Source of the DNA: a virus
Taxonomy: Duplodnaviria; Caudoviricetes
DNA length: 64,000 nucleotides
Direction: 5' to 3' (one strand)
Virus record (IMG/VR): IMGVR_UViG_3300026116_000040
Coordinates: 1,149 to 65,148 of that record
Part shown: positions 31,415 through 51,882 of the stretch, piece by piece
Position numbering within the stretch: position 1 is the stretch's first letter
Layout of the letters: each line of letters begins with the position of its first letter
Made by a program: the position numbers and the translations under genes
Notes under the pieces: generated by a model
What the model saw: the letters and a program-made list of their open reading frames with translations, nothing else
What the model was told of the DNA's origin: nothing
Databases searched by the model: none

Positions 31415-31416
31415 TT

Positions 31417-32762: not shown

Positions 32763-32780
32763 CTATATAAAAATAGATTT

Positions 32781-32978: not shown

Positions 32979-32979
32979 T

Positions 32980-34858: not shown

Positions 34859-34869
34859 AATAAAAATAT

Positions 34870-35760: not shown

Positions 35761-36503
35761 TAAATATCTACACCTTCGCGTTTAACAGCGCTCAATTTTT
35801 GGAGTGGCAATATATTACGTTCAAGAAGTTCTTGAAAGAAGAACATCAAATTCACTGTATCAACAACTCTTTCGATAAGCTAAACGAAAAGGAGGCTATA
35901 CAGGCTAAAGCAGAACAATTAGGAATACCGCATTATTTTCCTGAAGGAGTAAATCATAATGCCGGTGCAGGTCGAAGTCACCAGACTGCAATAAATTGGG
36001 CGTGGAGAAACATAATTGACCACAATAACATTGTTATTATCTTGGACCATGACATGTTTTTGATACGGGAAATGAAATTATACCCTGAATACGATGTGAT
36101 TTCGGTTATGCAGGGACGCGGACCTAGCATAAAATATTTCCATCCAGGCATAATGATAATACATCCTACGTTAAAAGATAGGGATCAGGTGGATTTTATA
36201 GGAACGAAAATAGATAATTATGATTGCGATAGCGGTGGAAATTGGCACCACTATATCCAAAACCATCCTGACCTGAAAATTAAAGGTCTTTCGATGGTAA
36301 ATGTGTGCGAAGAGCACGAAAACATGGCGGTGCTGCCCGTTGAAGCGCGGGATAGGTATTACGAAGGAGACTGTATGCAGATTTGCGAAGATTTTCTGCT
36401 TCACGGGCGGGGCGGGTCGAATTGGCAGCAAACACCGGCAGAGTTGTTTAATCGCAAAAACCAGCAAATTGAGCAAACTCTAAATCATTATTTGAGCTTA
36501 TGA
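35757..36503 (+). CDS. GT-A glycosyltransferase-like protein
   Basis: IILDHDMFL DxD motif; located in the glycosylation cluster. Confidence 0.6.
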
Positions 36504-37405: not shown

Positions 37406-37417
37406 AAAATAAACTAT

Positions 37418-38197: not shown

Positions 38198-38199
38198 AT

Positions 38200-38802
38200 A
38201 TGAATCTACCGTATCAAAGCCAAGCGTGCCAAGACAAATTTGTCGCTAAGTTATTAAATTTTAAAAGAGATGGATATTATCTCGATATAGGGTCTTGTGA
38301 CGCTGTTTCTACAAATAATACTTATGCTTTTGAAAGTTTAGGATGGCGCGGGATATGTATCGAAATGGATCCGCAGCATAACGATAGCTACAAAGTAAGA
38401 AGTTGCAAACATCTTAATGATGATGCTACCAAAATTGATTATTTGAGATTGTTGGAAGAAAGTAATGCTCCGAAAGCGATTGATTACCTTTCTTTAGATA
38501 TTGATGCGTTAAGTACTTCCGTATTAAAATTGATTCCCTTTGATAAATACATATTCGGAATTATTACAATTGAGCATGATCACTATATCCATAGTGGACA
38601 ATACAGGGATGAGCAACGTAGAATACTAACAGACGCAGGGTATGTGCTTTTGTGTGCGGATGTGTTGGTTCCACTACAAAATGACACGTCTGCTGACAGC
38701 TCGTTTGAGGACTGGTGGGTACATCAATCTATTGCACCTACGATTGAAATCCCTGTGAATAAAAGAATGTATCCAAAAGATATTATAGAAGCACTAGGAT
38801 GA
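38200..38802 (+). CDS. FkbM-family methyltransferase
   Basis: SQACQD, YLDIGS...NNTY...GWRGICIE, IDYLSLDID, ITIEHD. Confidence 0.85.
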   Translation: MNLPYQSQACQDKFVAKLLNFKRDGYYLDIGSCDAVSTNNTYAFESLGWRGICIEMDPQHNDSYKVRSCKHLNDDATKIDYLRLLEESNAPKAIDYLSLDIDALSTSVLKLIPFDKYIFGIITIEHDHYIHSGQYRDEQRRILTDAGYVLLCADVLVPLQNDTSADSSFEDWWVHQSIAPTIEIPVNKRMYPKDIIEALG

Positions 38803-39500
38803 GACATGCAATTTTTCTTCACGTATTTTACCGACACCTCTGGCGCGAAATAGTTGAAAGGCTAGAATCTGTACCGTTTGAATATAATCTGTACGTGAAT
38901 CTTGTGGATGGGTTTACATCTGATATAAACGTACACGAGCATTTCCCTGAAGCTGTGGTGAGAATATCTCCTAATCAGGGAATGGATATAGGTGGCCAAC
39001 TCAGGATGTTTGATTACTGGTGTAAGTACGGACAAGATGAACAACTAATCGTATTTCTTCACAGCAAGGGAAAGCCGCTAACGGAAAAACCAGAAAAAGT
39101 TGCGGAAACAGCGGAATTACGAAACCTTTTATGGAGCATCGTAACTCCTGAAAAATATCCTTTAGTGGAGCAATCGTTTTTAGATGAAACAGTGGGGATG
39201 GTAGGTGTCGAAGAATGGCATAGATTCCCTGGCCGCGATCACGGGGATCCAATTCCGGAATGCAAAAAATATGTTGATTTGCTAAATTTAAACAATTATG
39301 AAACAAACTCCTTCGGTTTCATTGGCGGCACCTGTTTTTTTGTTAGATCAGAAATATTTAAAAAAGTTTTTGAATCAGTAGATATCCTTAAATTAGTGGA
39401 AGAATTACCGGCAAGTAGTAATGGTGGAAATATTCACGCGCTTGAAAGGATTTTTGGGTATATTGTGCTCAGTGAAAATTTTAAAATAAAAGGAGTGTGA
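38799..39500 (+). CDS. RgpF/rhamnan-synthesis-like protein
   Basis: HVFY, NQGMDIG, LHSKG, GGTCFF.R, HALERIFG. Confidence 0.75.
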   Translation: MRHAIFLHVFYRHLWREIVERLESVPFEYNLYVNLVDGFTSDINVHEHFPEAVVRISPNQGMDIGGQLRMFDYWCKYGQDEQLIVFLHSKGKPLTEKPEKVAETAELRNLLWSIVTPEKYPLVEQSFLDETVGMVGVEEWHRFPGRDHGDPIPECKKYVDLLNLNNYETNSFGFIGGTCFFVRSEIFKKVFESVDILKLVEELPASSNGGNIHALERIFGYIVLSENFKIKGV

Positions 39501-39709
39501 AAGAACAAATTAAAAGAGAATACGAAGCTGACCTAAAAGCTATTGAAATATACTTAAAAATGGGCTACTCAAAGACGGACGCTATATCCGTGTTTGAAAT
39601 AGCATTCGCTAATTGTAAAAATTACAATTGCAGGTATGAATTAATAAAAAAACACATTGAAGGTTTTGCCGCAGCTGGTAATAAATTATCAACTAATAAT
39701 AAAACATGA
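39497..39709 (+). CDS. Hypothetical protein
   Basis: 70-aa ORF with overlapping start and stop. Confidence 0.45.
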   Translation: MKEQIKREYEADLKAIEIYLKMGYSKTDAISVFEIAFANCKNYNCRYELIKKHIEGFAAAGNKLSTNNKT

Positions 39710-40599
39710 AAATAGCATTATTAATGACCGGCCAGTGCCGACAGTTATGGCTAACAGCACCGAGCTTATACAAAAACGTAATAGAGCCTAATTCCGCGGA
39801 CGTGTTTCTATATCTGAACAAAAACTCTATGGAGCCGGATTGCGGAAATGAAACTGAAGAAATTGTCAATGCTGCATTCCCTAAAAACGTGAAGAGCCTT
39901 ATATTTACGGATGACAACTACAATAAGGAGGTTGAGGAACTTTATAAAAGCAATTACGATAAAATTGATGGTCAGTACAAGAAGTTAGGCAGGGATAAGT
40001 GGGACAAAAATCTCAACTTACACAATAGCGACCAATATTTTAAGCTAAAAAAATGCGCCGAAGCAGCTGTAGAGTACGCGAATAAAAATAATTTTACGTA
40101 CGATATTATGCTGAGGTGCCGTCCCGACATCGGATGGTTGAACGTTTGTGATTTGCAGCGGCCCGCTTCGCCTAACACCCTTTACGTAAACCATTCCAAA
40201 CATATTATAACAGGGGAAGTTTTCGACTGGGTGGAAGACACGTGCTTTTTCGGCGATCAGGATTCGATGTTAAAATTCTGTTCGGACTTCTCCGATAGTA
40301 TGGTGGACCAACTGGATATATGCGACGAAAGCTATGATTTAACCTGCGCAACGGAAAAGCTGTTGGCTAAAGTTTTAATAAATACAGGCATCCCCTATAC
40401 AGGAATAAATGATTACTTCGGATATACCGGTGAAGGGTGGGTCAGAAAAAAACTGGACAAATATTTCACCGATTGGCCGGCATCAAAAAACTACCATTTA
40501 ATCGAAAAACATGCTAAAGGTGCTACAGGAGGATTGGCCGTGTATTTTGATCGCATCGGAGATGAAAATTTAGTTTATGATCCAGCAATAATACTTTAA
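39706..40599 (+). CDS. Putative glycosyltransferase
   Basis: MKIALLMTGQCR...DVFLY...YDIMLRCRPD pattern. Confidence 0.65.
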   Translation: MKIALLMTGQCRQLWLTAPSLYKNVIEPNSADVFLYLNKNSMEPDCGNETEEIVNAAFPKNVKSLIFTDDNYNKEVEELYKSNYDKIDGQYKKLGRDKWDKNLNLHNSDQYFKLKKCAEAAVEYANKNNFTYDIMLRCRPDIGWLNVCDLQRPASPNTLYVNHSKHIITGEVFDWVEDTCFFGDQDSMLKFCSDFSDSMVDQLDICDESYDLTCATEKLLAKVLINTGIPYTGINDYFGYTGEGWVRKKLDKYFTDWPASKNYHLIEKHAKGATGGLAVYFDRIGDENLVYDPAIIL

Positions 40600-40602
40600 A
40601 AA

Positions 40603-41163
40603 ATGGAATGGTCAGAAGAATTAAGATACGATTACCTCTTAACTAAGGACTCTGTTGTTTTTGATGTAGGGGGTTTTGATGGCACATGGGCGTATAATAT
40701 ACATTCAAAATATGGCTGTAAAATATATGTATTTGAACCGGTAAAAGAATTTTACGATAACATAAAAGATAAATTTAATGACCAAAGCAATGTATCTGTA
40801 TTCAATTTCGGACTCGGTACAGAAAATAAAACATTGAGCATAGGTGTGATAGGAATGTCCACTTCTGTTTTAAATAAAGGAGAGAATAAGGTTGTAATAA
40901 TAGACACATTAGATGTGATCGCTGAATTTAAAAAGATAAACCTTTTAAAAATGAATATAGAAGGTGCCGAATATGATTTACTGGATTACATTATAGAACA
41001 TGGGTTGCAAACCAAATTGGAAAATATTCAAATACAATTCCACTCTAACGTTGAAGATTATGAAAACAGGCGAAATAAAATAAGAGAAGAATTATCTAAA
41101 ACTCATCACCTGACTTACGATTTCCCAGTTGGGCTACATGAAAATTGGGAGATAAATAAATAA
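40603..41163 (+). CDS. FkbM-family methyltransferase
   Basis: VFDVGGFDG, YVFEPV, LLKMNIEGAEY, QIQFH. Confidence 0.88.
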   Translation: MEWSEELRYDYLLTKDSVVFDVGGFDGTWAYNIHSKYGCKIYVFEPVKEFYDNIKDKFNDQSNVSVFNFGLGTENKTLSIGVIGMSTSVLNKGENKVVIIDTLDVIAEFKKINLLKMNIEGAEYDLLDYIIEHGLQTKLENIQIQFHSNVEDYENRRNKIREELSKTHHLTYDFPVGLHENWEINK

Positions 41164-41169
41164 AACAAA

Positions 41170-41910
41170 ATGGTAACAGCAGACTTTATAGGCCGCCTCG
41201 GCAATAATTTATTCCAGTTAGCTACTTCCGTTGGGTACTCAGCAAAATATAACGTGGATTACGAAATACCGTCATGGGAATATTCTGGTTGTTTTAATAT
41301 TAAGGAGAAACCGTGTGTTGGAGACGTTAAAGTAAACTATGGTGAAAAAGGGTGGCACTACGAAGAATTGCCCTTCATCGAAGACGTTAAGCTGTTCGGC
41401 TTTTTTCAGTCATATAAATATTTTGAACACTGTGAGGGGAAGATAAGAGACTTGTTTCAGTTTAGTGATGAGATAAAAAACAGGATAAACGAAAGATACA
41501 AATTGCCGGAAAACAGCTGTTCTGTACATGTTAGGAGAGGGGATTATATCGGGAACCATTTTCATGAAGTTTGTCATTTAGAATATTACAATGATGCGAT
41601 TGAGGAAATGAAAAGAAGGACGACAATTGATAAGATTGTTGTGTTTTCGGATGATATTGAGTGGTGCCGCGATAATTTAAAGGGGGAGCATTTTTTATTT
41701 ATAGAGGGCAACTCGAATATTGAAGATTTGTTTTTGATGACGCAGTGCACGCACAATATAATAGCAAATTCGAGCTTCTCGTGGTGGGGGGCGTGGTTAA
41801 ATGCTAATACTGATAAGATCGTCGTTGCACCTGGGACATGGTTTGGGGATGCCAGCAAAACCACAAGAGATTTATTACCCGAGGAATGGATACAAATAAA
41901 AATTAAATAA
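41170..41910 (+). CDS. GT11 alpha-1,2-fucosyltransferase (second copy)
   Basis: GRLGNNLFQ, GFFQS, HVRRGDY, FSDDIEWC, IIANSSFSWWGAWL. Confidence 0.92.
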   Translation: MVTADFIGRLGNNLFQLATSVGYSAKYNVDYEIPSWEYSGCFNIKEKPCVGDVKVNYGEKGWHYEELPFIEDVKLFGFFQSYKYFEHCEGKIRDLFQFSDEIKNRINERYKLPENSCSVHVRRGDYIGNHFHEVCHLEYYNDAIEEMKRRTTIDKIVVFSDDIEWCRDNLKGEHFLFIEGNSNIEDLFLMTQCTHNIIANSSFSWWGAWLNANTDKIVVAPGTWFGDASKTTRDLLPEEWIQIKIK

Positions 41911-44281: not shown

Positions 44282-44983
44282 ATGGAAACAGTAAATTCAT
44301 CAACAGGTTACGTTGGGGCCTATTCCTCAAGTAATGATGCCTTAACAGGCGTAGCAGCGTATGGTATTTGTGATCTTCGCAGAGATATTGCTAAAGCAGA
44401 ATCTGATCTTAGAGAAACAATACACAACCAAAGTCTTGTGCAAGGCACAGAATTTTGTGCAGTAAACAAAAGCATCCACGAAGCGGAATGTAATGTTATT
44501 AAAAATGATAATGACATTGCTCACCGAAACACTATTCACCTAAATTCTGTGGAGCGTGACTTGCAAAATCGCATTCTTGAAAATCGTCAAGTGTTAACAT
44601 CTATCATCGGAGACAAAACTGACAGAGTTCTTGACCGTATTGATCGTGAAGCTATTGACCTAAAAAATCAGTTGCGTGCGTTTGAAATGTCTAATGCAGA
44701 AAAATTCTGTGAACTTAAAACTGAAGGATTTAAAAACACTCAAAAGATCCTTGATGAATTAGCTAAAAATAAATATGATGCTATTAAAGATGAGTTGGAT
44801 GAAACTCGTTTATCTAAGTATCATGATAAAAGCGGCTATCAATTTGCTTTGCAAAACCAAGAGATTGCTTCCTTGAAACAAATGATCAACTCAGTAGAGC
44901 AAAATCAAAAATTCAGCTCAAAGACTGTACAATTTGGAACCGGAAATTTAGCCGGTACAGCACAAACTGCTAATCAAGGTTAA
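44282..44983 (+). CDS. Coiled-coil protein
   Basis: Long heptad-like helix; TACATTTG promoter upstream and A-rich translation start. Confidence 0.75.
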   Translation: METVNSSTGYVGAYSSSNDALTGVAAYGICDLRRDIAKAESDLRETIHNQSLVQGTEFCAVNKSIHEAECNVIKNDNDIAHRNTIHLNSVERDLQNRILENRQVLTSIIGDKTDRVLDRIDREAIDLKNQLRAFEMSNAEKFCELKTEGFKNTQKILDELAKNKYDAIKDELDETRLSKYHDKSGYQFALQNQEIASLKQMINSVEQNQKFSSKTVQFGTGNLAGTAQTANQG

Positions 44984-45211: not shown

Positions 45212-45246
45212 AAACCCTGGAGAGCAATCTTCGGGGTTTTTTATTT
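45212..45246 (+). terminator. Intrinsic terminator insulating the tRNA array
   Basis: AAACCCTGGAGA-GCAA-TCTTCGGGGTTTTTT. Confidence 0.85.
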
Positions 45247-45283: not shown

Positions 45284-45291
45284 TATATTTG
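45284..45291 (+). promoter_or_regulatory. Bacteroidota -7 promoter element, tRNA operon 1
   Basis: TATATTTG 4 nt before the leader ATG. Confidence 0.8.
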
Positions 45292-45295
45292 CATC

Positions 45296-45370
45296 ATGAA
45301 AACAATAACTCTACATCAACAACCGCAGCAACGTCGCCCGAAAAGCGATAAATGGGGTTATTGTGTTTAG
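45296..45370 (+). CDS. Attenuator leader peptide 1 (His/Gln/Pro/Arg)
   Basis: MKTITLHQQPQQRRPKSDKWGYCV, upstream of tRNA-Pro, Gln, His and Arg(ACG). Confidence 0.85.
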   Translation: MKTITLHQQPQQRRPKSDKWGYCV

Positions 45371-45393
45371 GGTATTTAAACATATAAGTAAGG

Positions 45394-45435
45394 AAACTAA
45401 CCCCGACATTGATTTGTTCGGGGTTTTTAGTTTTT
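45394..45435 (+). terminator. Attenuator terminator 1
   Basis: AACCCCGA...TCGGGGTT plus T-tract; GGGGTTA at 45354-45360 is an alternative partner of TAACCCC. Confidence 0.85.
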
Positions 45436-45439
45436 ATAT

Positions 45440-45515
45440 CTTGCGGTATAGGAGTCTGGTTTATCTAACCTCACTTGGAATGAGGAGTACGTGGGTTCAA
45501 ATCCCACTCGCAAGA
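45440..45515 (+). tRNA. trnP: tRNA-Pro(TGG)
   Basis: CCTCA-CTTGGAA-TGAGG anticodon arm, GGTTCAAATCC. Confidence 0.88.
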
Positions 45516-45596
45516 CGAGAGAGGAGACATTGGTTCGAGTCCAATCTGCGGGGCCAAGCCCTGCGGTAGTAACATATAGGAAATACGCCTCTCGTG
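45516..45596 (+). ncRNA. Circularly permuted tRNA-like RNA (YrlA/Y RNA-like architecture)
   Basis: Order: GAGAGG, T-arm ATTGG-TTCGAGT-CCAAT, CTGCGGG-G-CCA, linker, CCTGCGG, D-arm, CCTCTC. Confidence 0.65.
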
Positions 45597-45602
45597 TTTT
45601 AC

Positions 45603-45675
45603 TTTCGGGTCGTCTAGCGGCAGGATTTTGTGCTTTGAACACAAAGACGGTTTGGTTCGAATCCACCCCCGAAAA
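45603..45675 (+). tRNA. trnQ: tRNA-Gln(TTG)
   Basis: TTGTG-CTTTGAA-CACAA; acceptor TTTCGGG/CCCGAAA. Confidence 0.85.
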
Positions 45676-45677
45676 CT

Positions 45678-45747
45678 GTGTTATTAGCATATTGGTAATG
45701 TATTCGCCTGTGAAGCGAGTGAACAGGGTTCGATTCCCGATAACGTG
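45678..45747 (+). tRNA. trnH: tRNA-His(GTG), 3' acceptor strand interrupted by an insertion
   Basis: TTCGC-CTGTGAA-GCGAG; the perfect 3' strand ATAAC|ACC is split, with the remainder at 46219-46221. Confidence 0.75.
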
Positions 45748-46218
45748 GTGCAGCTACCAGAAGGGCGGGATTTTAATCACATAATAAACTTAGAAAGATG
45801 AATAACCAATTAACGCTACAACTGTCAGAAGAGGTACAAAGCCCCGCCTTTTTGGTAGGTGCTGTTACCACCAGTGCTTCTGTCTATGATGAATTCGAGT
45901 GGATAAACAATAATAACTTTGCAAAGGATGCACACAAGCATACTTCATGTGATTGGCAATTATCAAAGAATGAAATTTGGCTTGGCAATACGAGCGGAAA
46001 CAAGCCCTGGGAAAAGGGAGTAGATATTCCAAAAGACTATGATCATTTTAAGACTATTCGATTGGGCCATCAGGCATATTGCATTAAAGGTAAGCCGTTG
46101 AGTAGAGATTACTGTCTGCCTTTGATAATTGACAAATCAGAAGAGCAAGAGTATGATAGAATTTATATGAAGAAAATGTCCGCCTATGCAAGGTAGCGTC
46201 CTTAGCATTGGTGGTAAC
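45745..46218 (-). mobile_element. attC-like gene cassette inserted in tRNA-His
   Basis: GTTACCACCAGTGCT (45864-45878) is inversely repeated at 46204-46218 (14/15); long imperfect palindrome 45741-45866; TAAC at both junctions. Confidence 0.65.
45798..46196 (+). CDS. Cassette-borne hypothetical protein
   Basis: 132-aa ORF starting inside the palindrome loop. Confidence 0.6.
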   Translation: MNNQLTLQLSEEVQSPAFLVGAVTTSASVYDEFEWINNNNFAKDAHKHTSCDWQLSKNEIWLGNTSGNKPWEKGVDIPKDYDHFKTIRLGHQAYCIKGKPLSRDYCLPLIIDKSEEQEYDRIYMKKMSAYAR

Positions 46219-46226
46219 ACCCTTAT

Positions 46227-46298
46227 GTTTCATTAGGCTAAGGGACAAACCATTTGGCTACGAACCAAATATTACACGTTCGAATCGTGTATGAAACA
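46227..46298 (+). tRNA. trnR: tRNA-Arg(ACG)
   Basis: TTTGG-CTACGAA-CCAAA; acceptor GTTTCAT/ATGAAAC. Confidence 0.88.
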
Positions 46299-46309
46299 CT
46301 TAATATTTG

Positions 46310-46382
46310 TGCGAAAGAGTGGTACCGAGCCACTATCTTCGGATTTTCAGTCCGCTGCATAGACCATCTTTGCTACTTCCGC
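46310..46382 (-). tRNA. trnF: tRNA-Phe(GAA)
   Basis: CGGA-CTGAAAA-TCCG; atypical T-loop CTCGGTA. Confidence 0.8.
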
Positions 46383-46387
46383 TTTTG

Positions 46388-46458
46388 CGTTCTCGAATGG
46401 AATCGAACCATTATTAGCTGATTAACAGTCAGTCGTACTACCGTTGTACTACAAGAAC
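46388..46458 (-). tRNA. trnN: tRNA-Asn(GTT)
   Basis: CTGA-CTGTTAA-TCAG; GGTTCGATTCC. Confidence 0.88.
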
Positions 46459-46907
46459 TTTTTTATATACTCTTTATAGTACCCTAATTGGATAACAGTT
46501 TTAATTGCATGGCAATTAGCGCATAAAATTTCACATTTTCTTATTTCTGTTTTTACTGATTCAATAGAATTTCTATCTGCAATTAATGCTGCTACACTTG
46601 ATATTTTACCACTATTATCCTTGTGGTCGAATTGTAAAACAAATGGATTTTTATTTCCGCACTCTTTACAGCCACATAGTCTTTTATATCTTAAAGAAAG
46701 TTCTATTAAATATAGTCTATGATTTTTATCACATTCCTTTTTCTTGTTAACCCTTTTAAATGCCCTAGCATTACTTTTATCTTTTTGTCCTGTCCCACAA
46801 TGAAAGGCTACAGTTCCTTTGGAACATTTTAATTTCCCCGAAATTTTGTTATAAGAAAGTCCCCCCTTTCTTAATTTCAATATTTTTGCTCCAAGTCCTT
46901 TATTCAT
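46449..46907 (-). CDS. HNH endonuclease with N-terminal HTH
   Basis: CKECG...LQFDH...KCEILCANCH; own TATATTTG promoter at 46912-46919. Confidence 0.85.
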   Translation of the reverse strand: MNKGLGAKILKLRKGGLSYNKISGKLKCSKGTVAFHCGTGQKDKSNARAFKRVNKKKECDKNHRLYLIELSLRYKRLCGCKECGNKNPFVLQFDHKDNSGKISSVAALIADRNSIESVKTEIRKCEILCANCHAIKTVIQLGYYKEYIKKFL

Positions 46908-46972
46908 ACTGCAAATATATAAATAAAGGTTCAAATAAAAAAATGTTTTTTAAATCAATTGAACTATATTTG

Positions 46973-47046
46973 CGGGGTTAACGGAAATCGAATCCGTAAT
47001 CTCTTCCGTGACAGGGAAGCGTCATGCGCCAATATGCTGTAACCCC
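46973..47046 (-). tRNA. trnD: tRNA-Asp(GTC)
   Basis: CTTCC-CTGTCAC-GGAAG; acceptor GGGGTTA/TAACCCC. Confidence 0.85.
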
Positions 47047-47048
47047 GT

Positions 47049-47086
47049 AAAACAAAAAACCCTCAAGCTTTTAGCTCAAGGGTTTT
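47049..47086 (-). terminator. Attenuator terminator 2
   Basis: Minus strand AAACCCTTGAGC-TAAAA-GCTTGAGGGTTTTTT; CAAGG/GCTCA just after the leader stop can pair with the 5' arm. Confidence 0.85.
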
Positions 47087-47110
47087 GACAATATCATTCC
47101 ATGAGCCTTG

Positions 47111-47155
47111 TTAGGTTCTATTATCAAAATCGAAATTAAAATTTATTGTTTTCAT
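47111..47155 (-). CDS. Attenuator leader peptide 2 (Asn/Phe/Asp)
   Basis: MKTINFNFDFDNRT; TATATTTG-CACC-ATG leaderless start; upstream of tRNA-Asp, Asn and Phe. Confidence 0.85.
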   Translation of the reverse strand: MKTINFNFDFDNRT

Positions 47156-47179
47156 GGTGCAAATATAACTATTTTTTTG

Positions 47180-47251
47180 TCTCTGTGAAAAGAATCGAAC
47201 TTTTATTTATTGTTTAGAAGACAACTGTACTATCCATTGTACGACACAGAG
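47180..47251 (-). tRNA. trnR: tRNA-Arg(TCT)
   Basis: GTTGT-CTTCTAA-ACAAT; acceptor CTCTGTG/CACAGAG. Confidence 0.85.
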
Positions 47252-47259
47252 TTTATTTG

Positions 47260-47330
47260 TGTCCCTGAACAGAATCGAACTGTTGTCTTCCGGTTAAAAG
47301 CCGGAAGCTCTACCATTGAGCTACAAGGAC
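47260..47330 (-). tRNA. trnK: tRNA-Lys(TTT)
   Basis: TCCGG-CTTTTAA-CCGGA. Confidence 0.9.
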
Positions 47331-47400
47331 AAAACTTTATCTTCTCTTTCTCTTATGAGAAAAAGCAGGTTTTCGTTTTATTTTCCTTGTAGCATTCATG

Positions 47401-47471
47401 TTTCGCAAGATGGAATCGAACCACCGTAAACTGGATGTAAACCAATCACTCTACCATTGAGATATTGCGAA
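47401..47471 (-). tRNA. trnV: tRNA-Val(TAC)
   Basis: ATTGG-TTTACAT-CCAGT. Confidence 0.85.
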
Positions 47472-47477
47472 ATAAAG

Positions 47478-47547
47478 TGGACAGCGTGGGAATCGAACCC
47501 ATACAATCTGATTGCAAATCAGTTGGACTGCCGTTGTCATCGCGCCC
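47478..47547 (-). tRNA. trnA: tRNA-Ala(TGC)
   Basis: CTGA-TTTGCAA-TCAG; G3:U70; irregular acceptor/D region. Confidence 0.75.
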
Positions 47548-47553
47548 ATAATG

Positions 47554-47626
47554 TGTACCCTAAAGGGGTCGAACCTTTATCCCCTTTCTTATGAGGAAAG
47601 TGCTTTACCAATTAAGCTAAAGGAAC
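47554..47626 (-). tRNA. tRNA(CAT), probably Ile2 (lysidine), otherwise Met
   Basis: CTTTC-CTCATAA-GAAAG; third CAT tRNA of the window. Confidence 0.8.
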
Positions 47627-47630
47627 ATAG

Positions 47631-47701
47631 AGTACACAGAAAGAATCGAACTTTCTACTTTTGTTTTGCAGACAAATCTCAATCCATTTGAGTTTATGTA
47701 C
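47631..47701 (-). tRNA. trnC: tRNA-Cys(GCA)
   Basis: TTTGT-CTGCAAA-ACAAA; U73. Confidence 0.85.
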
Positions 47702-47706
47702 TTGTG

Positions 47707-47780
47707 AGCAGATAGCGAGAATCGAACTCGCTCTATTCCAGTTTGGAAGACTGGCGCACCACCAACTATGCGTTATCTGC
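47707..47780 (-). tRNA. trnG: tRNA-Gly(TCC)
   Basis: CCAGT-CTTCCAA-ACTGG; U73. Confidence 0.87.
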
Positions 47781-47789
47781 TTATTATCG

Positions 47790-47862
47790 TATTCGGTACG
47801 GGCATCGAACCCGTATCTGCAAAGTGAAAGTTTGCTATCCTGACCATTTAGAAGAACCGAAC
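47790..47862 (-). tRNA. trnE: tRNA-Glu(TTC)
   Basis: GCAAA-CTTTCAC-TTTGC. Confidence 0.87.
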
Positions 47863-47911
47863 ATTTCGTCGGTCTCCTCACTTAATCTGTTTTTCATTTT
47901 CATTTTTTAAG

Positions 47912-47983
47912 TTGGAATAAAAGGACTTGAACCTTTAGCCTTCGACGTATCAGGTCGCTGCTCCACCATTGAGCTATACTCCA
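47912..47983 (-). tRNA. trnI: tRNA-Ile(GAT)
   Basis: CGAC-CTGATAC-GTCG. Confidence 0.87.
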
Positions 47984-47989
47984 ATATTG

Positions 47990-48060
47990 TTGCGGAGAAG
48001 AGAATCGAACTCTTATCTGAGGCTTATGAGGCCCCCGTGCTACCGTTACACCACCACGCA
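47990..48060 (-). tRNA. trnM: tRNA-Met(CAT)
   Basis: GGGGC-CTCATAA-GCCTC. Confidence 0.82.
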
Positions 48061-48066
48061 ATTTTG

Positions 48067-48138
48067 AGCTTAGATTCGGAACTGACCCGAAAATTGATGC
48101 TTACAAGGCAACTGTTTTTCCCGTTAAACTATCCAAGC
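48067..48138 (-). tRNA. trnT: tRNA-Thr(TGT)
   Basis: TGC-CTTGTAA-GCA; atypical T-loop GTCAGTT. Confidence 0.78.
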
Positions 48139-48143
48139 TTAAG

Positions 48144-48215
48144 CACACCCTCTTTGAATCGAACAAAGTCCTTCGGTTTTGGAGACCGATTGGCTACCAT
48201 TAGCCCAAGATGCGT
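48144..48215 (-). tRNA. trnW: tRNA-Trp(CCA)
   Basis: TCGGT-CTCCAAA-ACCGA; G73. Confidence 0.83.
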
Positions 48216-48217
48216 AT

Positions 48218-48250
48218 AAAATAAAAAACCCCGATTTTTGGTCGAGGCTT
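48218..48250 (-). terminator. Attenuator terminator 4
   Basis: Minus strand GCCTCGA-CCAAAAA-TCGGGGT-TTTTT; CGGGGT at the leader end duplicates the 3' arm. Confidence 0.82.
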
Positions 48251-48276
48251 ACAATTTATATTTTTATAAATTTACT

Positions 48277-48369
48277 TCACCCCGTTATTTTAAATTTCTC
48301 AAACATGGCAATCCCAACACACCATTTTGTTGCGTTTGTTCTCGTGCCTATATTTGTAATTAGTTTCAT
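48277..48369 (-). CDS. Attenuator leader peptide 4 (Trp/Thr/Met/Ile/Glu/Gly/Cys/Ala/Val/Lys/Arg)
   Basis: MKLITNIGTRTNATKWCVGIAMFEKFKITG; contains all 11 amino acids of the downstream 12-tRNA operon. Confidence 0.8.
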   Translation of the reverse strand: MKLITNIGTRTNATKWCVGIAMFEKFKITG

Positions 48370-48398
48370 TGAAAATAGTATTGTTTTAAATATTTCGA

Positions 48399-48447
48399 CA
48401 AATATATGAATAATTGTTTTATATATCCAAATTTATTTTTACATTTG
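48399..48447. promoter_or_regulatory. Back-to-back Bacteroidota promoters for tRNA operons 3 and 4
   Basis: CAAATATA at 48399-48406 (minus) and TACATTTG at 48440-48447 (plus). Confidence 0.8.
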
Positions 48448-48451
48448 TACC

Positions 48452-48520
48452 ATGAAAACACAAAAATCATATAGCCTGTCTTTAAGTTATTCGTTGAGTA
48501 AACAAGAGGCATTCTATTGA
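48452..48520 (+). CDS. Attenuator leader peptide 3 (Ser/Tyr/Leu)
   Basis: MKTQKSYSLSLSYSLSKQEAFY, upstream of tRNA-Leu, Tyr, Ser, Ser and Leu. Confidence 0.87.
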   Translation: MKTQKSYSLSLSYSLSKQEAFY

Positions 48521-48538
48521 TTATACTGAAATAGATAC

Positions 48539-48579
48539 AAAAAAGCCTCTCGAATTTAATTGGGAGGCTTTTTTTATTT
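48539..48579 (+). terminator. Attenuator terminator 3
   Basis: AAAAGCCTCTCGA...TTGGGAGGCTTTTTTT; AGAGGC at 48505-48510 is an alternative partner of GCCTCT. Confidence 0.87.
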
Positions 48580-48653
48580 GCAGCAATGGTGAAACTGGTA
48601 AACACACAGGACTTAAAATCCTGACGCTTTGGGTTCGATTCCCAATTGCTGCA
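48580..48653 (+). tRNA. trnL: tRNA-Leu(TAA), short variable loop
   Basis: CAGGA-CTTAAAA-TCCTG; 5-nt variable region. Confidence 0.88.
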
Positions 48654-48659
48654 CTAAAT

Positions 48660-48733
48660 GGGTTGTTCATTGCTAACAGGTAAGCATTCGGTCTGTAACA
48701 CCGCTAATAGAGGTTCGATTCCTTTACACCCCA
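48660..48733 (+). tRNA. trnY: tRNA-Tyr(GTA), short variable loop
   Basis: CGGT-CTGTAAC-ACCG; ~4-nt variable region. Confidence 0.82.
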
Positions 48734-48738
48734 CATAC

Positions 48739-48824
48739 GGAAGATTAAACAGAAAGGCTCTGTAACCGCCTGCTAAGCGAGTTGTCCTGTAAAAAGGGAT
48801 GGATTTCGAATATTCAGTCTTCCG
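48739..48824 (+). tRNA. trnS: tRNA-Ser(GCT)
   Basis: CGC-CTGCTAA-GCG; long variable arm; G73. Confidence 0.8.
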
Positions 48825-48827
48825 TTT

Positions 48828-48921
48828 GGAAAGTAAAGCAGCTACATTGGAGTGGCGACTAGTCTTGAAAACTAGGTATCGGCGTAAAAAACTGATTGGA
48901 GGTCGGGTCTTCTGCTTTCCG
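48828..48921 (+). tRNA. trnS: tRNA-Ser(TGA)
   Basis: CTAGT-CTTGAAA-ACTAG; long variable arm; G73; atypical T-loop. Confidence 0.8.
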
Positions 48922-48926
48922 CAAAT

Positions 48927-49000
48927 GCCCAATTGGCGAAATTGGTAAACGCGCTACTCTTAGAAAGTAGATTTTACAGGTTCGACTCCTGTATTGGGCA
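48927..49000 (+). tRNA. trnL: tRNA-Leu(TAG), short variable loop
   Basis: CTACT-CTTAGAA-AGTAG; 5-nt variable region. Confidence 0.88.
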
Positions 49001-49664
49001 CAATTATAGCGTTCTTGTCCAACCCTTTAAATTTGTCATTTATCGTCTTCCTTTGGACATCAACATACTCTACACCCCATTGGTATGTCTTGTTTATTTT
49101 GCTCAGTCTTTTTTCATACATCTTATGCCGGCTGTAAACATAGTCGGGAGAAATGTACTTATAATGTAGTAATGGAACGGTGAATGGACTGTAAATAATA
49201 TTACCAATAGGATTTGCGGTATGGCAACCTGGCAAATAATTTATTTCTTGGATTTGATTGGGTCTAAAAAAACAAAGTTTGCTATACATTGAGTTAGGAA
49301 CGCCCAAACGCGAAGGTGGCGGACCAATCATATCGTAGCCTTTCGTTTTTACGATGGATGTATTTTTTAAGTCGGCGTTTACCGGCAACTCTAAAAATTC
49401 ATCAATGTCAACTACGCACACCCAGTCCGCTTTGCTTTTCTTCCAACAGCTGTTTTTTATTTTAAGATACAAATCATCCCGTATTTCATCTTGTGAATTA
49501 TAATCGATCAGCGTGCATCCAGCAGCATTTATTATTTCACGGGAATTGTCGATAGACCGGTTATCGAAAATGGTGATGTTGGCCCCCATAGATTGATAAT
49601 GCTTTATGAAGTGGGGCAGTAAGAACGCTTCATTGTAACAGATACTAAATACGTCGATGTTCAT
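48960..49664 (-). CDS. GT2-like glycosyltransferase
   Basis: YNEAFLLPHFIKHY, FDNRSID, DWVCVVDIDEFL; 3' end overlaps tRNA-Leu antisense. Confidence 0.85.
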   Translation of the reverse strand: MNIDVFSICYNEAFLLPHFIKHYQSMGANITIFDNRSIDNSREIINAAGCTLIDYNSQDEIRDDLYLKIKNSCWKKSKADWVCVVDIDEFLELPVNADLKNTSIVKTKGYDMIGPPPSRLGVPNSMYSKLCFFRPNQIQEINYLPGCHTANPIGNIIYSPFTVPLLHYKYISPDYVYSRHKMYEKRLSKINKTYQWGVEYVDVQRKTINDKFKGLDKNAIIVPNTGVEPVKSTF

Positions 49665-50538: not shown

Positions 50539-51867
50539 TTATTTTAGTTTTTTTCTTTTAGCTATTTTCGCCTTCTCCCTTTCGATCAACTCTTTATTTT
50601 CTTTCGATATGCCTGCCGCTAACGCCTTAACGCCTTTGCCTGTTTTTTCTTCTGCGCGTTGTTCCGATAGAGCTATAGCAACGGCTTGTTTTGGGTTTTT
50701 CACTTTTTGTCCAGATGAAGTTTTTAACTCCCCCTTTTTAAATTCCTTCATCACCTTTTTTATTTTATCAGTGCCTTTAGGAGAGGACAGAGTTCCGCCG
50801 GTGGCGAGTTTTTCAATAGTAATAATTCGCGGATTAACAATCTCTGCAAGTTTTTTAAAATTTTCTTTACTTAAAACAATCTCCCCTAATTTCATGTTAC
50901 CAACGCCTATTGCCGATACTGTATACCAACTTAATTTGTTTTTTTGATTGTAAGTGACGTCATCTATTGGCATTCCAGCATAATACGCTTTCTTGCCCTT
51001 TATTTGGATGGAATTGGCCGAATACTTTTCGCCTCTTTCGTCTATAAGACTTTCTTCCTTTGATGTTGCTTTTTTCTCCTTAATCCTCCCCTCCATCAAC
51101 TCAACATACTTTTTCTTCAGGTTTTCCGGCAATAGCGGATTTTTTTTAGCTGCCGCTATTTCTTTTTCCATCTGCTCGATGGTTTGTTCTGATTTTTTGA
51201 TTATTGGCATTACGGTTCCTCCTTGGTTGTATGTTTTTGGTTTGTCAATAAAAAATATGGTATCTATGAAATATAAAGTGTCATCTTTTGTTAGCACATT
51301 TTCATCATGTAGGTCTTCTAATATTATCCCTAATTCAGGATTACGGTAATCATTATTTCTTATGTTTGTAAATCCGTTTTCCAACATAAACGCTTTTACT
51401 TTTGCTATATCTGTTATACTTGTAGCTTTTATTAATGGTTGCTCTACAATAGAATATAATTTGTTTTCTGTTTCTGTGAAGCCTATTAATTCATAAGCGG
51501 TAATGGGGAAGAAAAAATTATGCAACAATAGGCTATAGAGATAGTCTTCCCAAGATAAATAACAAATCGCATCATTTAATTTAATTACAGTGTTTTCATC
51601 TTTCAGGTAAACCTTTTGCTCCATCCCTTGAGCTGCGCTAGGCTTAGATATTATTTCACCTACACTTGGAGAAGCCCACAACTTTTTATCTGTAATATAA
51701 CTTTTTAATAATTCTATTTCTTCTTGTTCGTGTTGCTTGCTTCCTTTAGCCAACGCACTTGTGCCTTGAACTCTTTTAAGGTGACTGGACGCTGCTTCGA
51801 TAGCTGCCCCTTTTGCAACTTTGCTAATTCCTGAAATGACATCTCGTATGGTTTTATTGGTTATCAT
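50539..51867 (-). CDS. Polyvalent-protein-type kinase fused to further modules (C-terminal DUF6496-like)
   Basis: GMEQKVY...VIKLN...LHNFFFP..AYELIGF...DLHDENVL...FID; C-terminal VMKEFKKGELKTSSGQKVKNPKQAVAIALSE. Confidence 0.75.
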   Translation of the reverse strand: MITNKTIRDVISGISKVAKGAAIEAASSHLKRVQGTSALAKGSKQHEQEEIELLKSYITDKKLWASPSVGEIISKPSAAQGMEQKVYLKDENTVIKLNDAICYLSWEDYLYSLLLHNFFFPITAYELIGFTETENKLYSIVEQPLIKATSITDIAKVKAFMLENGFTNIRNNDYRNPELGIILEDLHDENVLTKDDTLYFIDTIFFIDKPKTYNQGGTVMPIIKKSEQTIEQMEKEIAAAKKNPLLPENLKKKYVELMEGRIKEKKATSKEESLIDERGEKYSANSIQIKGKKAYYAGMPIDDVTYNQKNKLSWYTVSAIGVGNMKLGEIVLSKENFKKLAEIVNPRIITIEKLATGGTLSSPKGTDKIKKVMKEFKKGELKTSSGQKVKNPKQAVAIALSEQRAEEKTGKGVKALAAGISKENKELIEREKAKIAKRKKLK

Positions 51868-51882
51868 GCACAAATATAGTAA

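What the first reader, a model, noticed from the sequence alone, without database searches (positions are those of the whole stretch)
45284..49000. tRNA array controlled by four codon-matched leader-peptide attenuators (candidate new system)
Seen: 24 tRNAs in four transcription units, each with a TAnnTTTG promoter, an MK(T/L)-starting short ORF, an intrinsic terminator and then the tRNAs. Each leader is made of the amino acids of its own tRNAs, down to isoacceptor: CGT/CGC precede Arg-ACG and AGA precedes Arg-TCT. Each has a segment at or near its stop that can pair with the terminator 5' arm. Known: this is the trp/his-type attenuation architecture, classically described for amino-acid biosynthesis and synthetase operons. 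I do not know of it controlling tRNA genes. Inference: stalling on codons whose tRNA is missing allows read-through and resupplies that tRNA group. Extra tRNA would not fix amino-acid starvation, so the likely signal is tRNA destruction by host anticodon nucleases (PrrC, PARIS, retron or toxin types), making this an inducible counter-defence.
Basis: partly seen in the sequence, partly recalled or inferred. Interest (0 to 1): 0.97.

Follow-up and report, generated by a model that had tools for sequence, protein, structure and literature searches.

The report
Leader-peptide attenuators gating phage tRNAs
A soil phage places each of its four blocks of tRNA genes behind a tiny test gene written in the codons those tRNAs read, followed by a switchable transcription stop, so it probably makes a tRNA block only when ribosomes decode those codons slowly.

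Summary
The window carries 24 tRNA genes (45440-49001) in four units. Each unit has a Bacteroidota-type TAnnTTTG promoter, a short ORF (14-30 codons), a hairpin plus T-run, then the tRNAs. Every tRNA of every unit has at least one cognate codon in its own leader (23 of 23 amino-acid/codon-box classes). Only the true pairing among all 24 leader-unit permutations reaches that. Cognate codons form runs of 9, 8, 10 and 11. Each leader also holds a segment complementary to its own terminator's 5' arm.

The same design, with leaders that change as tRNAs change units, occurs in five other viral contigs. Across all 14 units, 99 of 100 classes are covered (0 of 20,000 permutations reach this), and own-leader/own-terminator pairing beats mismatched pairs (0 of 100,000).

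I read these as ribosome-mediated attenuators that raise tRNA transcription when cognate codons are decoded slowly.

No RNA data exist.

Eight literature searches found no description of such control of tRNA genes. This scan has noted the same design before on other DNA.

It is a new variant of a known kind, and of high interest.

The parts
45284..45291 (+). U1 promoter -7 box (TAnnTTTG), 4 nt before the ATG, which implies a leaderless mRNA
   Evidence: The sigma-A box spans -12 to -5 in Flavobacterium psychrophilum (passage in PMC9723704).
45296..45370 (+). U1 leader ORF: 24 codons plus TAG. The regulatory run is codons 7-15 (45314-45340) and is made only of His, Gln, Pro and Arg(CGY) codons.
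   Evidence: A run of 9 occurred in 0 of 200,000 random ORFs.
45353..45360 (+). U1 antiterminator segment, complementary to the terminator 5' arm
   Evidence: duplex -10.6 kcal/mol; best of 14 arms for this leader; 3.3% of shuffles do as well.
45399..45433 (+). U1 intrinsic terminator: 5' arm 45399-45408, 3' arm 45415-45425, then a T tail
   Evidence: -13.6 kcal/mol; the whole leader folds with z = -3.08.
45440..46299 (+). U1 cargo: tRNA-Pro(TGG), an 86-nt tRNA relic (45517-45602), tRNA-Gln(TTG), tRNA-His(GTG), a 132-aa ORF of unknown function (45798-46196) and tRNA-Arg(ACG)
47160..47167 (-). U2 promoter -7 box, 4 nt before the ATG
47111..47155 (-). U2 leader ORF: 14 codons plus TAA. The regulatory run is codons 5-12 (47143-47120) and is made only of Asn, Phe and Asp codons.
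   Evidence: A run of 8 occurred in 0 of 200,000 random ORFs.
47098..47108 (-). U2 antiterminator segment, 5-15 nt after the stop codon
   Evidence: -11.8 kcal/mol; best of 14 arms; 0.3% of shuffles do as well.
47049..47085 (-). U2 intrinsic terminator: 5' arm 47085-47073, 3' arm 47069-47057, then a T tail
   Evidence: -16.2 kcal/mol; z = -3.25.
46309..47046 (-). U2 cargo: tRNA-Asp(GTC), an HNH homing-endonuclease ORF with its own TAnnTTTG-N4-ATG start (46907-46449), tRNA-Asn(GTT) and tRNA-Phe(GAA)
48399..48406 (-). U3 promoter -7 box, 29 nt before the ATG, giving a 5' UTR of about 25 nt
48277..48369 (-). U3 leader ORF: 30 codons plus TGA. It holds at least one codon for each of the 11 tRNA classes of the unit, including Trp, Cys, Met and Arg-AGA. 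The longest in-unit run is codons 13-22.
   Evidence: 23 of 28 in-unit codons. P(all 11 classes covered by chance) = 0.0037.
48278..48285 (-). U3 antiterminator segment, overlapping the stop codon
   Evidence: -8.8 kcal/mol; 7.3% of shuffles do as well. It is part of the minimum-energy fold.
48218..48250 (-). U3 intrinsic terminator, the weakest of the four: 5' arm 48250-48242, 3' arm 48234-48226, then a T tail
   Evidence: -9.3 kcal/mol.
47179..48213 (-). U3 cargo: 12 tRNAs, namely Trp, Thr, Met(CAT), Ile(GAT), Glu, Gly, Cys, Met(CAT), Ala, Val, Lys and Arg(TCT)
48440..48447 (+). U4 promoter -7 box, 4 nt before the ATG
48452..48520 (+). U4 leader ORF: 22 codons plus TGA. The regulatory run is codons 6-16 (48467-48499) and is made only of Ser, Tyr and Leu codons. 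It samples both Ser boxes and both Leu boxes.
   Evidence: A run of 11 occurred in 0 of 200,000 random ORFs.
48504..48511 (+). U4 antiterminator segment. In the free RNA it pairs with the regulatory codons (the 1:2 hairpin).
   Evidence: -10.9 kcal/mol; 2.7% of shuffles do as well.
48542..48579 (+). U4 intrinsic terminator: 5' arm 48542-48553, 3' arm 48560-48571, then a T tail
   Evidence: -15.8 kcal/mol; the whole leader folds with z = -6.14.
48580..49001 (+). U4 cargo: tRNA-Leu(TAA), Tyr(GTA), Ser(GCT), Ser(TGA) and Leu(TAG)

Best explanation
These are four ribosome-mediated (leader-peptide) transcription attenuators, each controlling one block of phage tRNA genes.

Anatomy. Transcription starts at a host sigma-A-type promoter. 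In three units the transcript begins at the ATG itself, so it is a leaderless mRNA. A ribosome translates a short ORF whose first and middle parts are a roster of codons read by the tRNAs encoded downstream.

Supply adequate. If all rostered codons are decoded quickly, the ribosome runs on to the stop codon. There it covers the antiterminator segment or separates it from the terminator's 5' arm. The terminator hairpin forms and RNA polymerase stops before the tRNAs.

Supply short. If any rostered codon is decoded slowly because its charged tRNA is scarce, the ribosome stalls upstream. The antiterminator pairs with the terminator's 5' arm and transcription reads through into that tRNA block. 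The new tRNAs relieve the stall, which makes this negative feedback.

Each leader thus acts as a multi-input OR gate for its own block.

Shown by computation: the anatomy, the codon/tRNA match, the alternative pairings, and covariation across phages.

Inferred: translation of the leaders, coupling of translation to transcription, the direction of the response, and the physiological trigger.
For: 1. Anatomy is present in all four units.

2. Codon roster in the window. All 23 of 23 tRNA classes (amino acid plus codon box) are represented in their own leader. Only 1 of the 24 leader-unit permutations reaches 23, and the next best reaches 18. In-unit runs of 9, 8 and 11 codons occurred in 0 of 200,000 random ORFs drawn with the phage's codon usage; the U3 run of 10 has P = 0.024.

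3. The match is frame-specific. In frame, 188 of 316 codons are in-unit, against 76 of 302 and 90 of 302 in the other two frames.

4. Covariation elsewhere. The promoter-plus-start motif found 99 viral stretches. Nine have same-strand tRNAs within 1.5 kb, and eight of those show the design, with 5 distinct leaders. Leu, Asn, Glu and His sit in different units in different contigs, and the leader follows them.
 - Across all 14 units, 99 of 100 classes are covered (permutation mean 61.9, maximum 84, 0 of 20,000 reach it).
 - Across the 8 units found purely by the motif, 43 of 44 are covered (maximum 42, 0 of 20,000).
 - For Arg, Leu and Ser codons, 38 fall in the right codon box and 6 in the wrong one.

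5. Switch. Own-leader/own-terminator-arm duplexes average -10.9 kcal/mol, against -7.3 for mismatched pairs (0 of 100,000 permutations reach the observed sum). With a modelled ribosome on the rostered codons, the 5' arm pairs upstream. With the ribosome in the last 8-10 codons, that pairing is lost in most units. Free leaders of U1, U2 and U4 fold as a 1:2 hairpin plus terminator, with z = -3.1, -3.3 and -6.1.

6. Host machinery.
 - TAnnTTTG spans -12 to -5 in Flavobacterium, and leader-peptide attenuation is reported there for amino-acid operons (passages in PMC9723704).
 - TAnnTTTG-N4-ATG occurs 9 times in the window, against 0-3 times for other spacings.
 - By my count, about 64 of the 80 listed genome contigs holding the motif carry Bacteroidota names.
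Against: - There are no expression data. No RNA run is listed for this DNA, so translation of the leaders and termination at the hairpins are unproven.
- U1 discriminates poorly in the ribosome-position model: the paired fraction stays at 0.4-0.7 throughout.
- The U3 terminator is weak (-9.3 kcal/mol), and its minimum-energy fold is the antiterminator form.
- In truncated free RNA, U2 and U3 already show the antiterminator pairing. The 'no translation gives termination' state of the trp model is therefore not evident for them.
- Large parts of the leaders are not cognate, for example 13 of 22 codons in U1.
- In other contigs, whole-leader enrichment is weak for L014 unit A (13 of 27, P = 0.12) and L087 unit C (5 of 21, P = 0.25). 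Six split-box codons lie in the wrong box.
- Five of the 24 tRNAs need relaxed thresholds. Ala-TGC has an imperfect acceptor stem.
- In 6 of the 14 units I picked the leader ORF by eye.
- Not every Bacteroidota-phage array has the design: none was seen in the five gaps of the crAss001 array that I read.
Confidence: 0.85

Rival explanations
1. Same hardware, but the selected function is an inducible counter-defence. Host anticodon nucleases such as PrrC, PARIS or retron effectors destroy particular tRNAs. The stall this causes switches on exactly the phage tRNA block that replaces them.
For: Phage tRNAs are reported to rescue infection from tRNA-cleaving defences (titles and abstracts of PMC10264068, PMC11464382 and PMC12409363 in the listing). 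The per-block sensors would give a targeted response. The phage carries other counter-defence-type genes: a Tad3-like Thoeris inhibitor (PF25185, E = 1.6e-25) and a Kinase-PolyVal protein.
Against: Nothing here links the units to nuclease targets. The array covers all 20 amino acids. Known co-targets such as Lys, Glu and Gln are split between U3 and U1. No tRNA ligase, kinase or repair genes were found among the 40 ORFs scanned. The host and its defences are unknown.
Confidence: 0.3
2. Same hardware, but the function is plain supply-and-demand homeostasis or timing. The phage makes its tRNAs only as the host pool becomes limiting, either through host shut-off and RNA decay or through heavy late translation with phage codon usage. 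No host defence is involved.
For: A near-complete set of 24 tRNAs covering all 20 amino acids suggests general translational autonomy. Negative feedback on the product is the simplest use of an attenuator. The design recurs in several unrelated contigs whatever the block composition.
Against: There are no data on host tRNA levels or on infection timing. Constitutive expression would be simpler if shortage were always present.
Confidence: 0.45
3. The codon runs are sensed as RNA without translation. Uncharged tRNAs would pair directly with the codon-like triplets, as in T-box leaders, and stabilise the antiterminator.
For: Codon-anticodon complementarity would also produce a leader-tRNA match.
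Against: In all 14 units the runs are in frame with an ATG placed at a fixed distance from the promoter, and they end in a stop near the antiterminator. The match is lost in the other two frames. No T-box or other riboswitch model matched at E up to 1. T-box leaders use one specifier, not runs for up to 13 tRNAs.
Confidence: 0.04
4. There is no regulation. The hairpins are ordinary unit boundaries or insulators, and the short ORFs are chance reading frames.
For: Short ORFs abound in AT-rich DNA. The motif TAnnTTTG alone is not enriched in the window (102 found against 91 +/- 8 expected).
Against: The permutation and simulation results argue against chance. So does recurrence with covarying leaders in other contigs. 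A terminator placed between a promoter and its only cargo makes no sense unless it can be overridden.
Confidence: 0.02

Closest known systems
Multivalent leader-peptide attenuators of enterobacterial amino-acid operons (ilvGMEDA leader with Ile/Leu/Val codons, thr leader with Thr/Ile; also trpL, hisL, pheL, leuL). Recalled from textbook knowledge. The general principle was seen in the abstract of PMC1183508 in the listing.
   Same: A short translated ORF with clustered regulatory codons. Mutually exclusive 1:2, 2:3 and 3:4 pairings. An intrinsic terminator before the cargo. Read-through when the ribosome stalls at hungry codons. Several amino acids sensed by one leader.
   Different: The cargo is tRNA genes, not biosynthetic enzymes, so the loop closes on the sensed molecule itself. 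The rosters cover up to 11-13 tRNA classes, including isoacceptor boxes. Three of the four mRNAs are leaderless. The element is phage-borne. Rfam leader models score below threshold (Phe_leader 28 bits against 55; Trp_leader 21.4 against 41).
Attenuation control of aminoacyl-tRNA synthetase genes: the pheM leader of pheST in E. coli, and T-box leaders in Firmicutes (recalled)
   Same: Expression of a translation-supply component is set by the decoding or charging state of the cognate tRNA, through a terminator/antiterminator switch.
   Different: Those systems control the synthetase and sense one amino acid. T-box leaders need no translation. No T-box match was found here.
The Anabaena sp. PCC 7120 trn operon, a normally silent array of 26 tRNA genes that is induced under translational stress (PMC8421152, PMC10272220; abstracts and term searches)
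   Same: An accessory tRNA array that is off by default and switched on when translation is impaired. Homing endonuclease genes lie within such arrays.
   Different: Control there is by the protein repressor TrcR (title and abstract). Neither paper contains the words leader peptide, attenuat- or terminator. That array is on a bacterial megaplasmid, not a phage.
Phage tRNAs as counter-measures to tRNA-cleaving defences, such as anticodon-loop variants and the T5 tRNA that neutralises PARIS (PMC10264068, PMC11464382; abstracts, term search)
   Same: Phage-encoded tRNAs that replace a host pool under attack.
   Different: No regulated expression is described. PMC10264068 has no occurrence of attenuat-, leader or terminator.

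Membership tests
Ribosome-mediated (leader-peptide) transcription attenuators | A short ORF with start and stop codons at the 5' end of the transcript, ahead of the regulated genes | tested here: met
   Present in 4 of 4 units. The start lies at a fixed 4 nt from the -7 box in 3 units. Whether the ORFs are translated could not be tested.
Ribosome-mediated (leader-peptide) transcription attenuators | Clustered regulatory codons cognate to what the regulated genes supply | tested here: met
   Runs of 9, 8, 10 and 11 in-unit codons; 23 of 23 classes covered.
Ribosome-mediated (leader-peptide) transcription attenuators | An intrinsic terminator between the leader ORF and the regulated genes | tested here: met
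   Hairpins of -9.3 to -16.2 kcal/mol, each followed by a T-run, ending 6-8 nt before the first tRNA in U1 and U3 and 1-3 nt before it in U2 and U4.
Ribosome-mediated (leader-peptide) transcription attenuators | An antiterminator that competes for the terminator's 5' arm and whose availability depends on ribosome position | tested here: met
   Own-versus-mismatched duplex test: 0 of 100,000 permutations reach the observed sum. The ribosome-position scan is clear for U2, U3 and U4 and weak for U1. This is a thermodynamic model only.
Ribosome-mediated (leader-peptide) transcription attenuators | Translation-dependent and codon-dependent read-through shown by experiment | not testable with these tools
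   No RNA run is listed for this DNA.
Classical amino-acid operon leaders (Rfam Phe_leader, Trp_leader and similar) | The cargo is amino-acid biosynthesis genes, and the sequence matches the family model | tested here: not met
   The cargo is tRNA genes. Phe_leader scores 28 bits against a gathering score of 55, and Trp_leader 21.4 against 41.
T-box leaders | The T-box covariance model matches; a single specifier codon; no ORF is needed | tested here: not met
   No T-box hit at E up to 1. The codon runs are in frame with an ATG and a stop.
Repressor-controlled accessory tRNA arrays (Anabaena trn/TrcR) | A dedicated transcriptional repressor acting at the array promoter | not tested
   No search for a TrcR homologue was run. 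The Pfam scan of 40 ORFs showed only one weak sub-threshold GerE match, inside the HNH ORF.

The most novel reading that the evidence does not exclude
The phage carries per-codon-family decoding-speed sensors that act as an inducible 'sense-and-replace' counter-defence. When a host anticodon nuclease or other tRNA-depleting immunity removes particular tRNAs, the stall in the matching leader switches on exactly the tRNA block that restores them. If so, the leaders are a readable record of which tRNA losses the phage expects. They would also be ready-made reporters of the supply of single tRNAs in living cells.
Probability: 0.3. Interest if true: 0.95.

Novelty: new variant of a known kind. Interest (0 to 1): 0.88.

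Why it matters
Leader-peptide attenuation is textbook for amino-acid operons. Eight full-text searches found no account of it governing tRNA genes.

Here the sensor, a ribosome reading test codons, measures the very molecule that the controlled genes produce. Single leaders list up to 11 tRNA classes, down to the isoacceptor box.

[quoted passage not shown] Regulated, shortage-triggered expression implies that the tRNAs answer a conditional decoding deficit during infection.

It also offers compact natural parts for reporting tRNA availability. And it shows that tiny ORFs in tRNA arrays, which annotation pipelines ignore, can be functional.

Tried and rejected
Searches for relatives
- A flanking protein (44282-44983) found no relatives in viral contigs.
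- blastn of the array against cultured-phage records matched only single tRNAs at about 69% identity among the 30 of 82 matching records that were listed.
- blastn with L087 found only a weak match to a structural gene of Flavobacterium Elemovirus phages. The record I opened has one annotated tRNA and no array.
- I found no cultured phage with the design.
- crAss001: the five gaps of its tRNA array that I read have no leader-plus-terminator. There is only a 4-codon ORF abutting the first tRNA.

Wider scans with the motif
One has the design, and it is the same contig as L056.

Expression
- No RNA holder is listed.
- The reads laid were DNA contigs only. They showed the same phage in fragments, plus one variant contig.

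Smaller checks
- The motif TAnnTTTG alone is not enriched in the window (102 found against 91 +/- 8 expected).
- ARAGORN finds no tRNA in the 45517-45602 spacer, even at very relaxed settings.
- The 132-aa ORF inside U1 has no Pfam, PHROG or Atlas lead.
- I tried to confirm tRNAs that the leaders 'predict' in uncalled gaps of other contigs. The result was inconclusive.
- A Lys/Arg-rich 20-codon ORF lies before the last two tRNAs of U3. It is not conserved in L056, so I dropped it as a fifth attenuator.
- L092 is a chance motif hit inside an HNH gene. I kept it out of the 14 units.
- The four identical leaders L028, L029, L065 and L066 were counted once.

Full report
WHAT IS THERE

The window is 64,000 of the 65,148 bases of a single contig with 37% G+C. 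ARAGORN at default settings tRNA genes between 45440 and 49001, plus one tRNA-Met far away at 16139-16214. At relaxed thresholds it adds Cys-GCA, Ala-TGC, Tyr-GTA, Ser-GCT and Ser-TGA, all with plausible cloverleaves. Rfam backs Cys (53 bits). It backs Tyr (29.7), Ala (25.4, below the cut-off) and Ser-TGA (29.4, as tRNA-Sec) more weakly. It has no hit for Ser-GCT. They cover all 20 amino acids.

The tRNAs fall into four units:
- U1 (+): Pro, Gln, His, Arg-ACG.
- U2 (-): Asp, Asn, Phe.
- U3 (-): Trp, Thr, Met, Ile, Glu, Gly, Cys, Met, Ala, Val, Lys, Arg-TCT.
- U4 (+): Leu-TAA, Tyr, Ser-GCT, Ser-TGA, Leu-TAG.

Each unit opens with a TAnnTTTG box, an ATG-started ORF of 24, 14, 30 or 22 codons, a G+C-rich hairpin with a T-run, and then the first tRNA within a few bases. 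A separate terminator at 45212-45239 closes the upstream genes, so U1 has its own start.

PROMOTERS AND STARTS

In U1, U2 and U4 the box lies exactly 4 nt before the ATG. The combined 20-nt motif occurs three times in the window, at exactly these places, and in none of 100 shuffles. In Flavobacterium psychrophilum the sigma-A box TAnnTTTG spans -12 to -5 (passage in PMC9723704). These three transcripts should therefore begin at the A of the ATG, as leaderless mRNAs.

The arrangement TAnnTTTG-N4-ATG occurs 9 times in the window, against 0-3 times for spacers of 0-11 nt. One of the nine starts the HNH endonuclease ORF inside U2. It therefore looks like a regular start signal of this phage.

U3 has its box 29 nt upstream of the ATG. 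The 8-nt motif by itself is not enriched in the window (102 found against 91 +/- 8 expected).

The same 20-nt motif in 120 stretches of prokaryotic genomes lies mostly in contigs named as Bacteroidota. By my count that is about 64 of the 80 listed. This fits a Bacteroidota host. The DNA is held by rhizosphere and soil metagenome runs.

THE CODON MATCH IN THE WINDOW

I scored a codon as in-unit if the unit encodes a tRNA for the same amino acid and the same codon box (first two letters). I skipped the first two codons of each leader.

| Unit | In-unit codons | Expected fraction | Longest run |
|---|---|---|---|
| U1 | 9 of 22 | 0.10 | 9 |
| U2 | 8 of 12 | 0.16 | 8 |
| U3 | 23 of 28 | 0.55 | 10 |
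| U4 | 12 of 20 | 0.19 | 11 |

(All.)

Random ORFs of the same lengths, drawn with the phage's codon usage, reached those runs in 0 of 200,000 trials for U1, U2 and U4, and with P = 0.024 for U3.

The sharper rule is coverage. Every tRNA class of every unit has at least one codon in its own leader, 23 of 23. Of all 24 ways to pair the four leaders with the four units, only the true one reaches 23, and the next best reaches 18. U3's leader contains all 11 of its classes, including Trp, Cys and an internal Met. The chance of that is 0.0037.

The isoacceptor claim holds. The CGY codons are in U1 and an AGA is in U3. U4's run samples both Ser boxes and both Leu boxes.

'Made of' its own amino acids is too strong. 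The last third of each leader is not cognate. That is where the antiterminator lies.

The 20-nt motif, which says nothing about leader composition or tRNAs, matched 99 stretches of viral contigs.
- Nine have same-strand tRNAs within 1.5 kb.
- One of these, L092, is a chance hit inside an HNH gene with no hairpin.
- The other eight show the design, with five distinct leaders: L014, L028 (identical in L029, L065 and L066), L038, L056 and L087.
- Reading their arrays gave ten further units.

tRNAs sit in different blocks in different contigs, and the leader follows them:
- Leu is with Ser and Tyr in the window. It is with Pro/Glu/Gln/His/Arg in L056, and with Tyr/Ser/Trp/Phe/Cys in L087.
- Asn is with Asp and Phe in the window. 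It is in the large block in L087, and with Tyr/Ser/Cys/Trp/Phe in L056 and L038.
- His and Glu move likewise.
- L014 unit B holds both Arg-ACG and Arg-TCT, and its leader has one CGC and one AGA.
- L014 unit A has a relaxed-threshold Arg-CCT call, and its leader has an AGG.

Statistics over all 14 units:
- 188 of 316 codons are in-unit (permutation mean 100.7, maximum 163, 0 of 20,000 reach it).
- 99 of 100 classes are covered (permutation mean 61.9, maximum 84, 0 of 20,000 reach it).

For the eight units found purely by the motif, with no choice on my part, coverage is 43 of 44 (maximum 42 in 20,000 permutations). Read in the other two frames, the match falls to 76 of 302 and 90 of 302. Among Arg, Leu and Ser codons of amino acids present in the unit, 38 are in the right box and 6 in the wrong one.

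The design was not seen in the 120 genome stretches. It was seen once in 120 metagenome stretches, on the same contig as L056.

THE SWITCH

The 14 terminators differ in sequence. For each unit I computed the best duplex between the leader RNA and the terminator's 5' arm.
- Own pairs average -10.9 kcal/mol.
- The 182 mismatched leader/arm pairs average -7.3 (sd 2.4).
- No permutation of 100,000 reaches the observed sum.

In the window the complementary segments lie at 45353-45360, 47108-47098, 48285-48278 and 48504-48511. That is just before, over, or just after the stop codon.

I then folded each transcript up to the terminator loop, with a 30-nt ribosome footprint moved codon by codon.
- The 5' arm is paired upstream while the A site is on the rostered codons. 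That pairing is lost when the ribosome occupies the last 8-10 codons.
- This is clear in U2, U3, U4 and most of the other units, and weak in U1.

The free leaders of U1, U2 and U4 fold with the rostered codons paired to the antiterminator segment, and with the terminator formed (z = -3.1, -3.3 and -6.1). U3 folds in the antiterminator form (z = -2.1). This is the 1:2 / 2:3 / 3:4 logic of the trp leader. Rfam's Phe and Trp leader models give weak sub-threshold hits on U4 and U3.

MECHANISM

I conclude that these are leader-peptide attenuators.
- Quick decoding of the roster lets the ribosome reach the stop. The terminator then forms, and few tRNA transcripts are made.
- A stall at any rostered codon frees the antiterminator and opens that block.

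The product relieves the stall, so the loop is negative feedback on tRNA supply. Leader-peptide attenuation is reported in flavobacteria for amino-acid operons (passage in PMC9723704).

Steps that are inferred and not shown: translation of the leaders, coupling of translation to transcription, and the direction and size of the response.

Weak points are listed in full in the Against line. They include the lack of RNA data, the weak model for U1, and the weak terminator of U3.

THE TRIGGER

The phage does carry a Tad3-like Thoeris inhibitor and a Kinase-PolyVal protein. Against this, no tRNA-repair genes were found among 40 ORFs scanned. The full 20-amino-acid set fits general replacement of a failing host pool as well as it fits defence evasion.

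COMPARISON WITH WHAT IS KNOWN

Eight full-text searches found no paper describing leader-peptide or attenuator control of tRNA genes.
- The nearest functional analogue is the Anabaena trn array, induced under translational stress. It is run by the repressor TrcR. Neither paper on it mentions leader peptides, attenuation or terminators.
- Papers on phage tRNAs and tRNA-cleaving defences do not discuss regulation.

By mechanism this works like the multivalent ilv and thr leaders. By membership it fails their defining cargo and their sequence models. I therefore file it as a new variant of a known kind.

Earlier notes of this scan describe the same design on other DNA. I formed my reading before seeing them, and I did not check their DNA.

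Noticed in passing
window 45517-45602 (+), inside U1 between tRNA-Pro and tRNA-Gln: An 86-nt spacer holds a T-arm, an acceptor 3' strand and CCA, followed by a complementary 5'-acceptor-like stretch. No tRNA is called there. Its first 42 nt match best the tRNA-Glu of L087 unit C (score 33, next best 26, among all tRNA calls of the 14 units). That tRNA sits at the same place, between Pro and Gln. The window's U1 leader has no Glu codon, while the L087 and L056 counterparts do. This may be a decayed tRNA-Glu whose codon was lost from the roster.
   Followed up: partly
window 45798-46196 (+) and 46907-46449 (-): Two protein ORFs lie inside tRNA units. The first is a 132-aa ORF with no family match and no promoter box of its own, so it would be under the U1 attenuator. 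The second is an HNH homing endonuclease in U2 with its own TAnnTTTG-N4-ATG start.
   Followed up: partly
window, 9 sites: TAnnTTTG followed by exactly 4 nt and an ATG occurs 9 times, against 0-3 times for other spacings. This suggests the phage makes regular use of leaderless mRNAs. In F. psychrophilum leaderless mRNAs are only 5.5% of mRNAs (passage in PMC9723704).
   Followed up: partly
window 30752-31414 (+), 50539-51873 (-), 24250-41910: A Tad3-like Thoeris inhibitor domain (PF25185, E = 1.6e-25). A Kinase-PolyVal protein (PF18762, E = 4e-55). An unusual concentration of glycosyltransferases (GT2, GT6, two GT11, RgpF), an FkbM methyltransferase and, at 3059-3880, a sulfotransferase. Several GIY-YIG/NUMOD3 and HNH homing endonucleases.
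   Followed up: no
window 47399-47337 (-), gap between tRNA-Val and tRNA-Lys in U3: A 20-codon ORF, more than half Lys and Arg codons, overlaps a 9-bp hairpin and lies directly before tRNA-Lys and tRNA-Arg(TCT). It is not conserved in the equivalent gap of L056. It is probably a by-product of a purine-rich spacer.
   Followed up: partly
L087 2083-2164 (-): A tRNA (Rfam 38.9 bits) with a perfect acceptor stem, an encoded CCA, a long variable arm and A73, which is Leu-like architecture. ARAGORN assigns it the anticodon GGC (Ala). It sits where L056 has its Leu tRNAs, and the leader of that unit holds Leu codons.
   Followed up: partly
window 48328-48377 (U3 leader and its 5' UTR): One contig of run X2 differs from the window at 9 positions within 50 nt here, while other laid pieces are identical. 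A related strain seems to carry a different U3 leader.
   Followed up: no
L220 (Bacteroides phage crAss001) 1640-1690: A TAnnTTTG box, 4 nt, an ATG and a 4-codon ORF abut the first tRNA of the 23-tRNA array, with no hairpin. This is a leaderless start without an attenuator.
   Followed up: partly
L022/L070/L073/L079; L031/L050/L062; L032/L063/L090; L033/L061/L069: Among the 99 viral motif hits, several identical or near-identical ORFs of 8-14 codons recur in different contigs without tRNAs downstream. They may be leaders of other regulated genes.
   Followed up: no
window U1-U4 and units of L056, L087, L038: The tRNA blocks are sorted roughly by the first codon letter: C-starting codons in U1-type units, T-starting in the Tyr/Ser/Leu/Trp/Phe/Cys units, and A- and G-starting in the large units. 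The window's U2 (Asp, Asn, Phe) breaks the pattern.
   Followed up: no
window 16139-16214 (-): A 25th tRNA (CAT anticodon, mismatched first acceptor pair) lies alone, 29 kb from the array, directly after a 385-aa ORF and without a leader.
   Followed up: no
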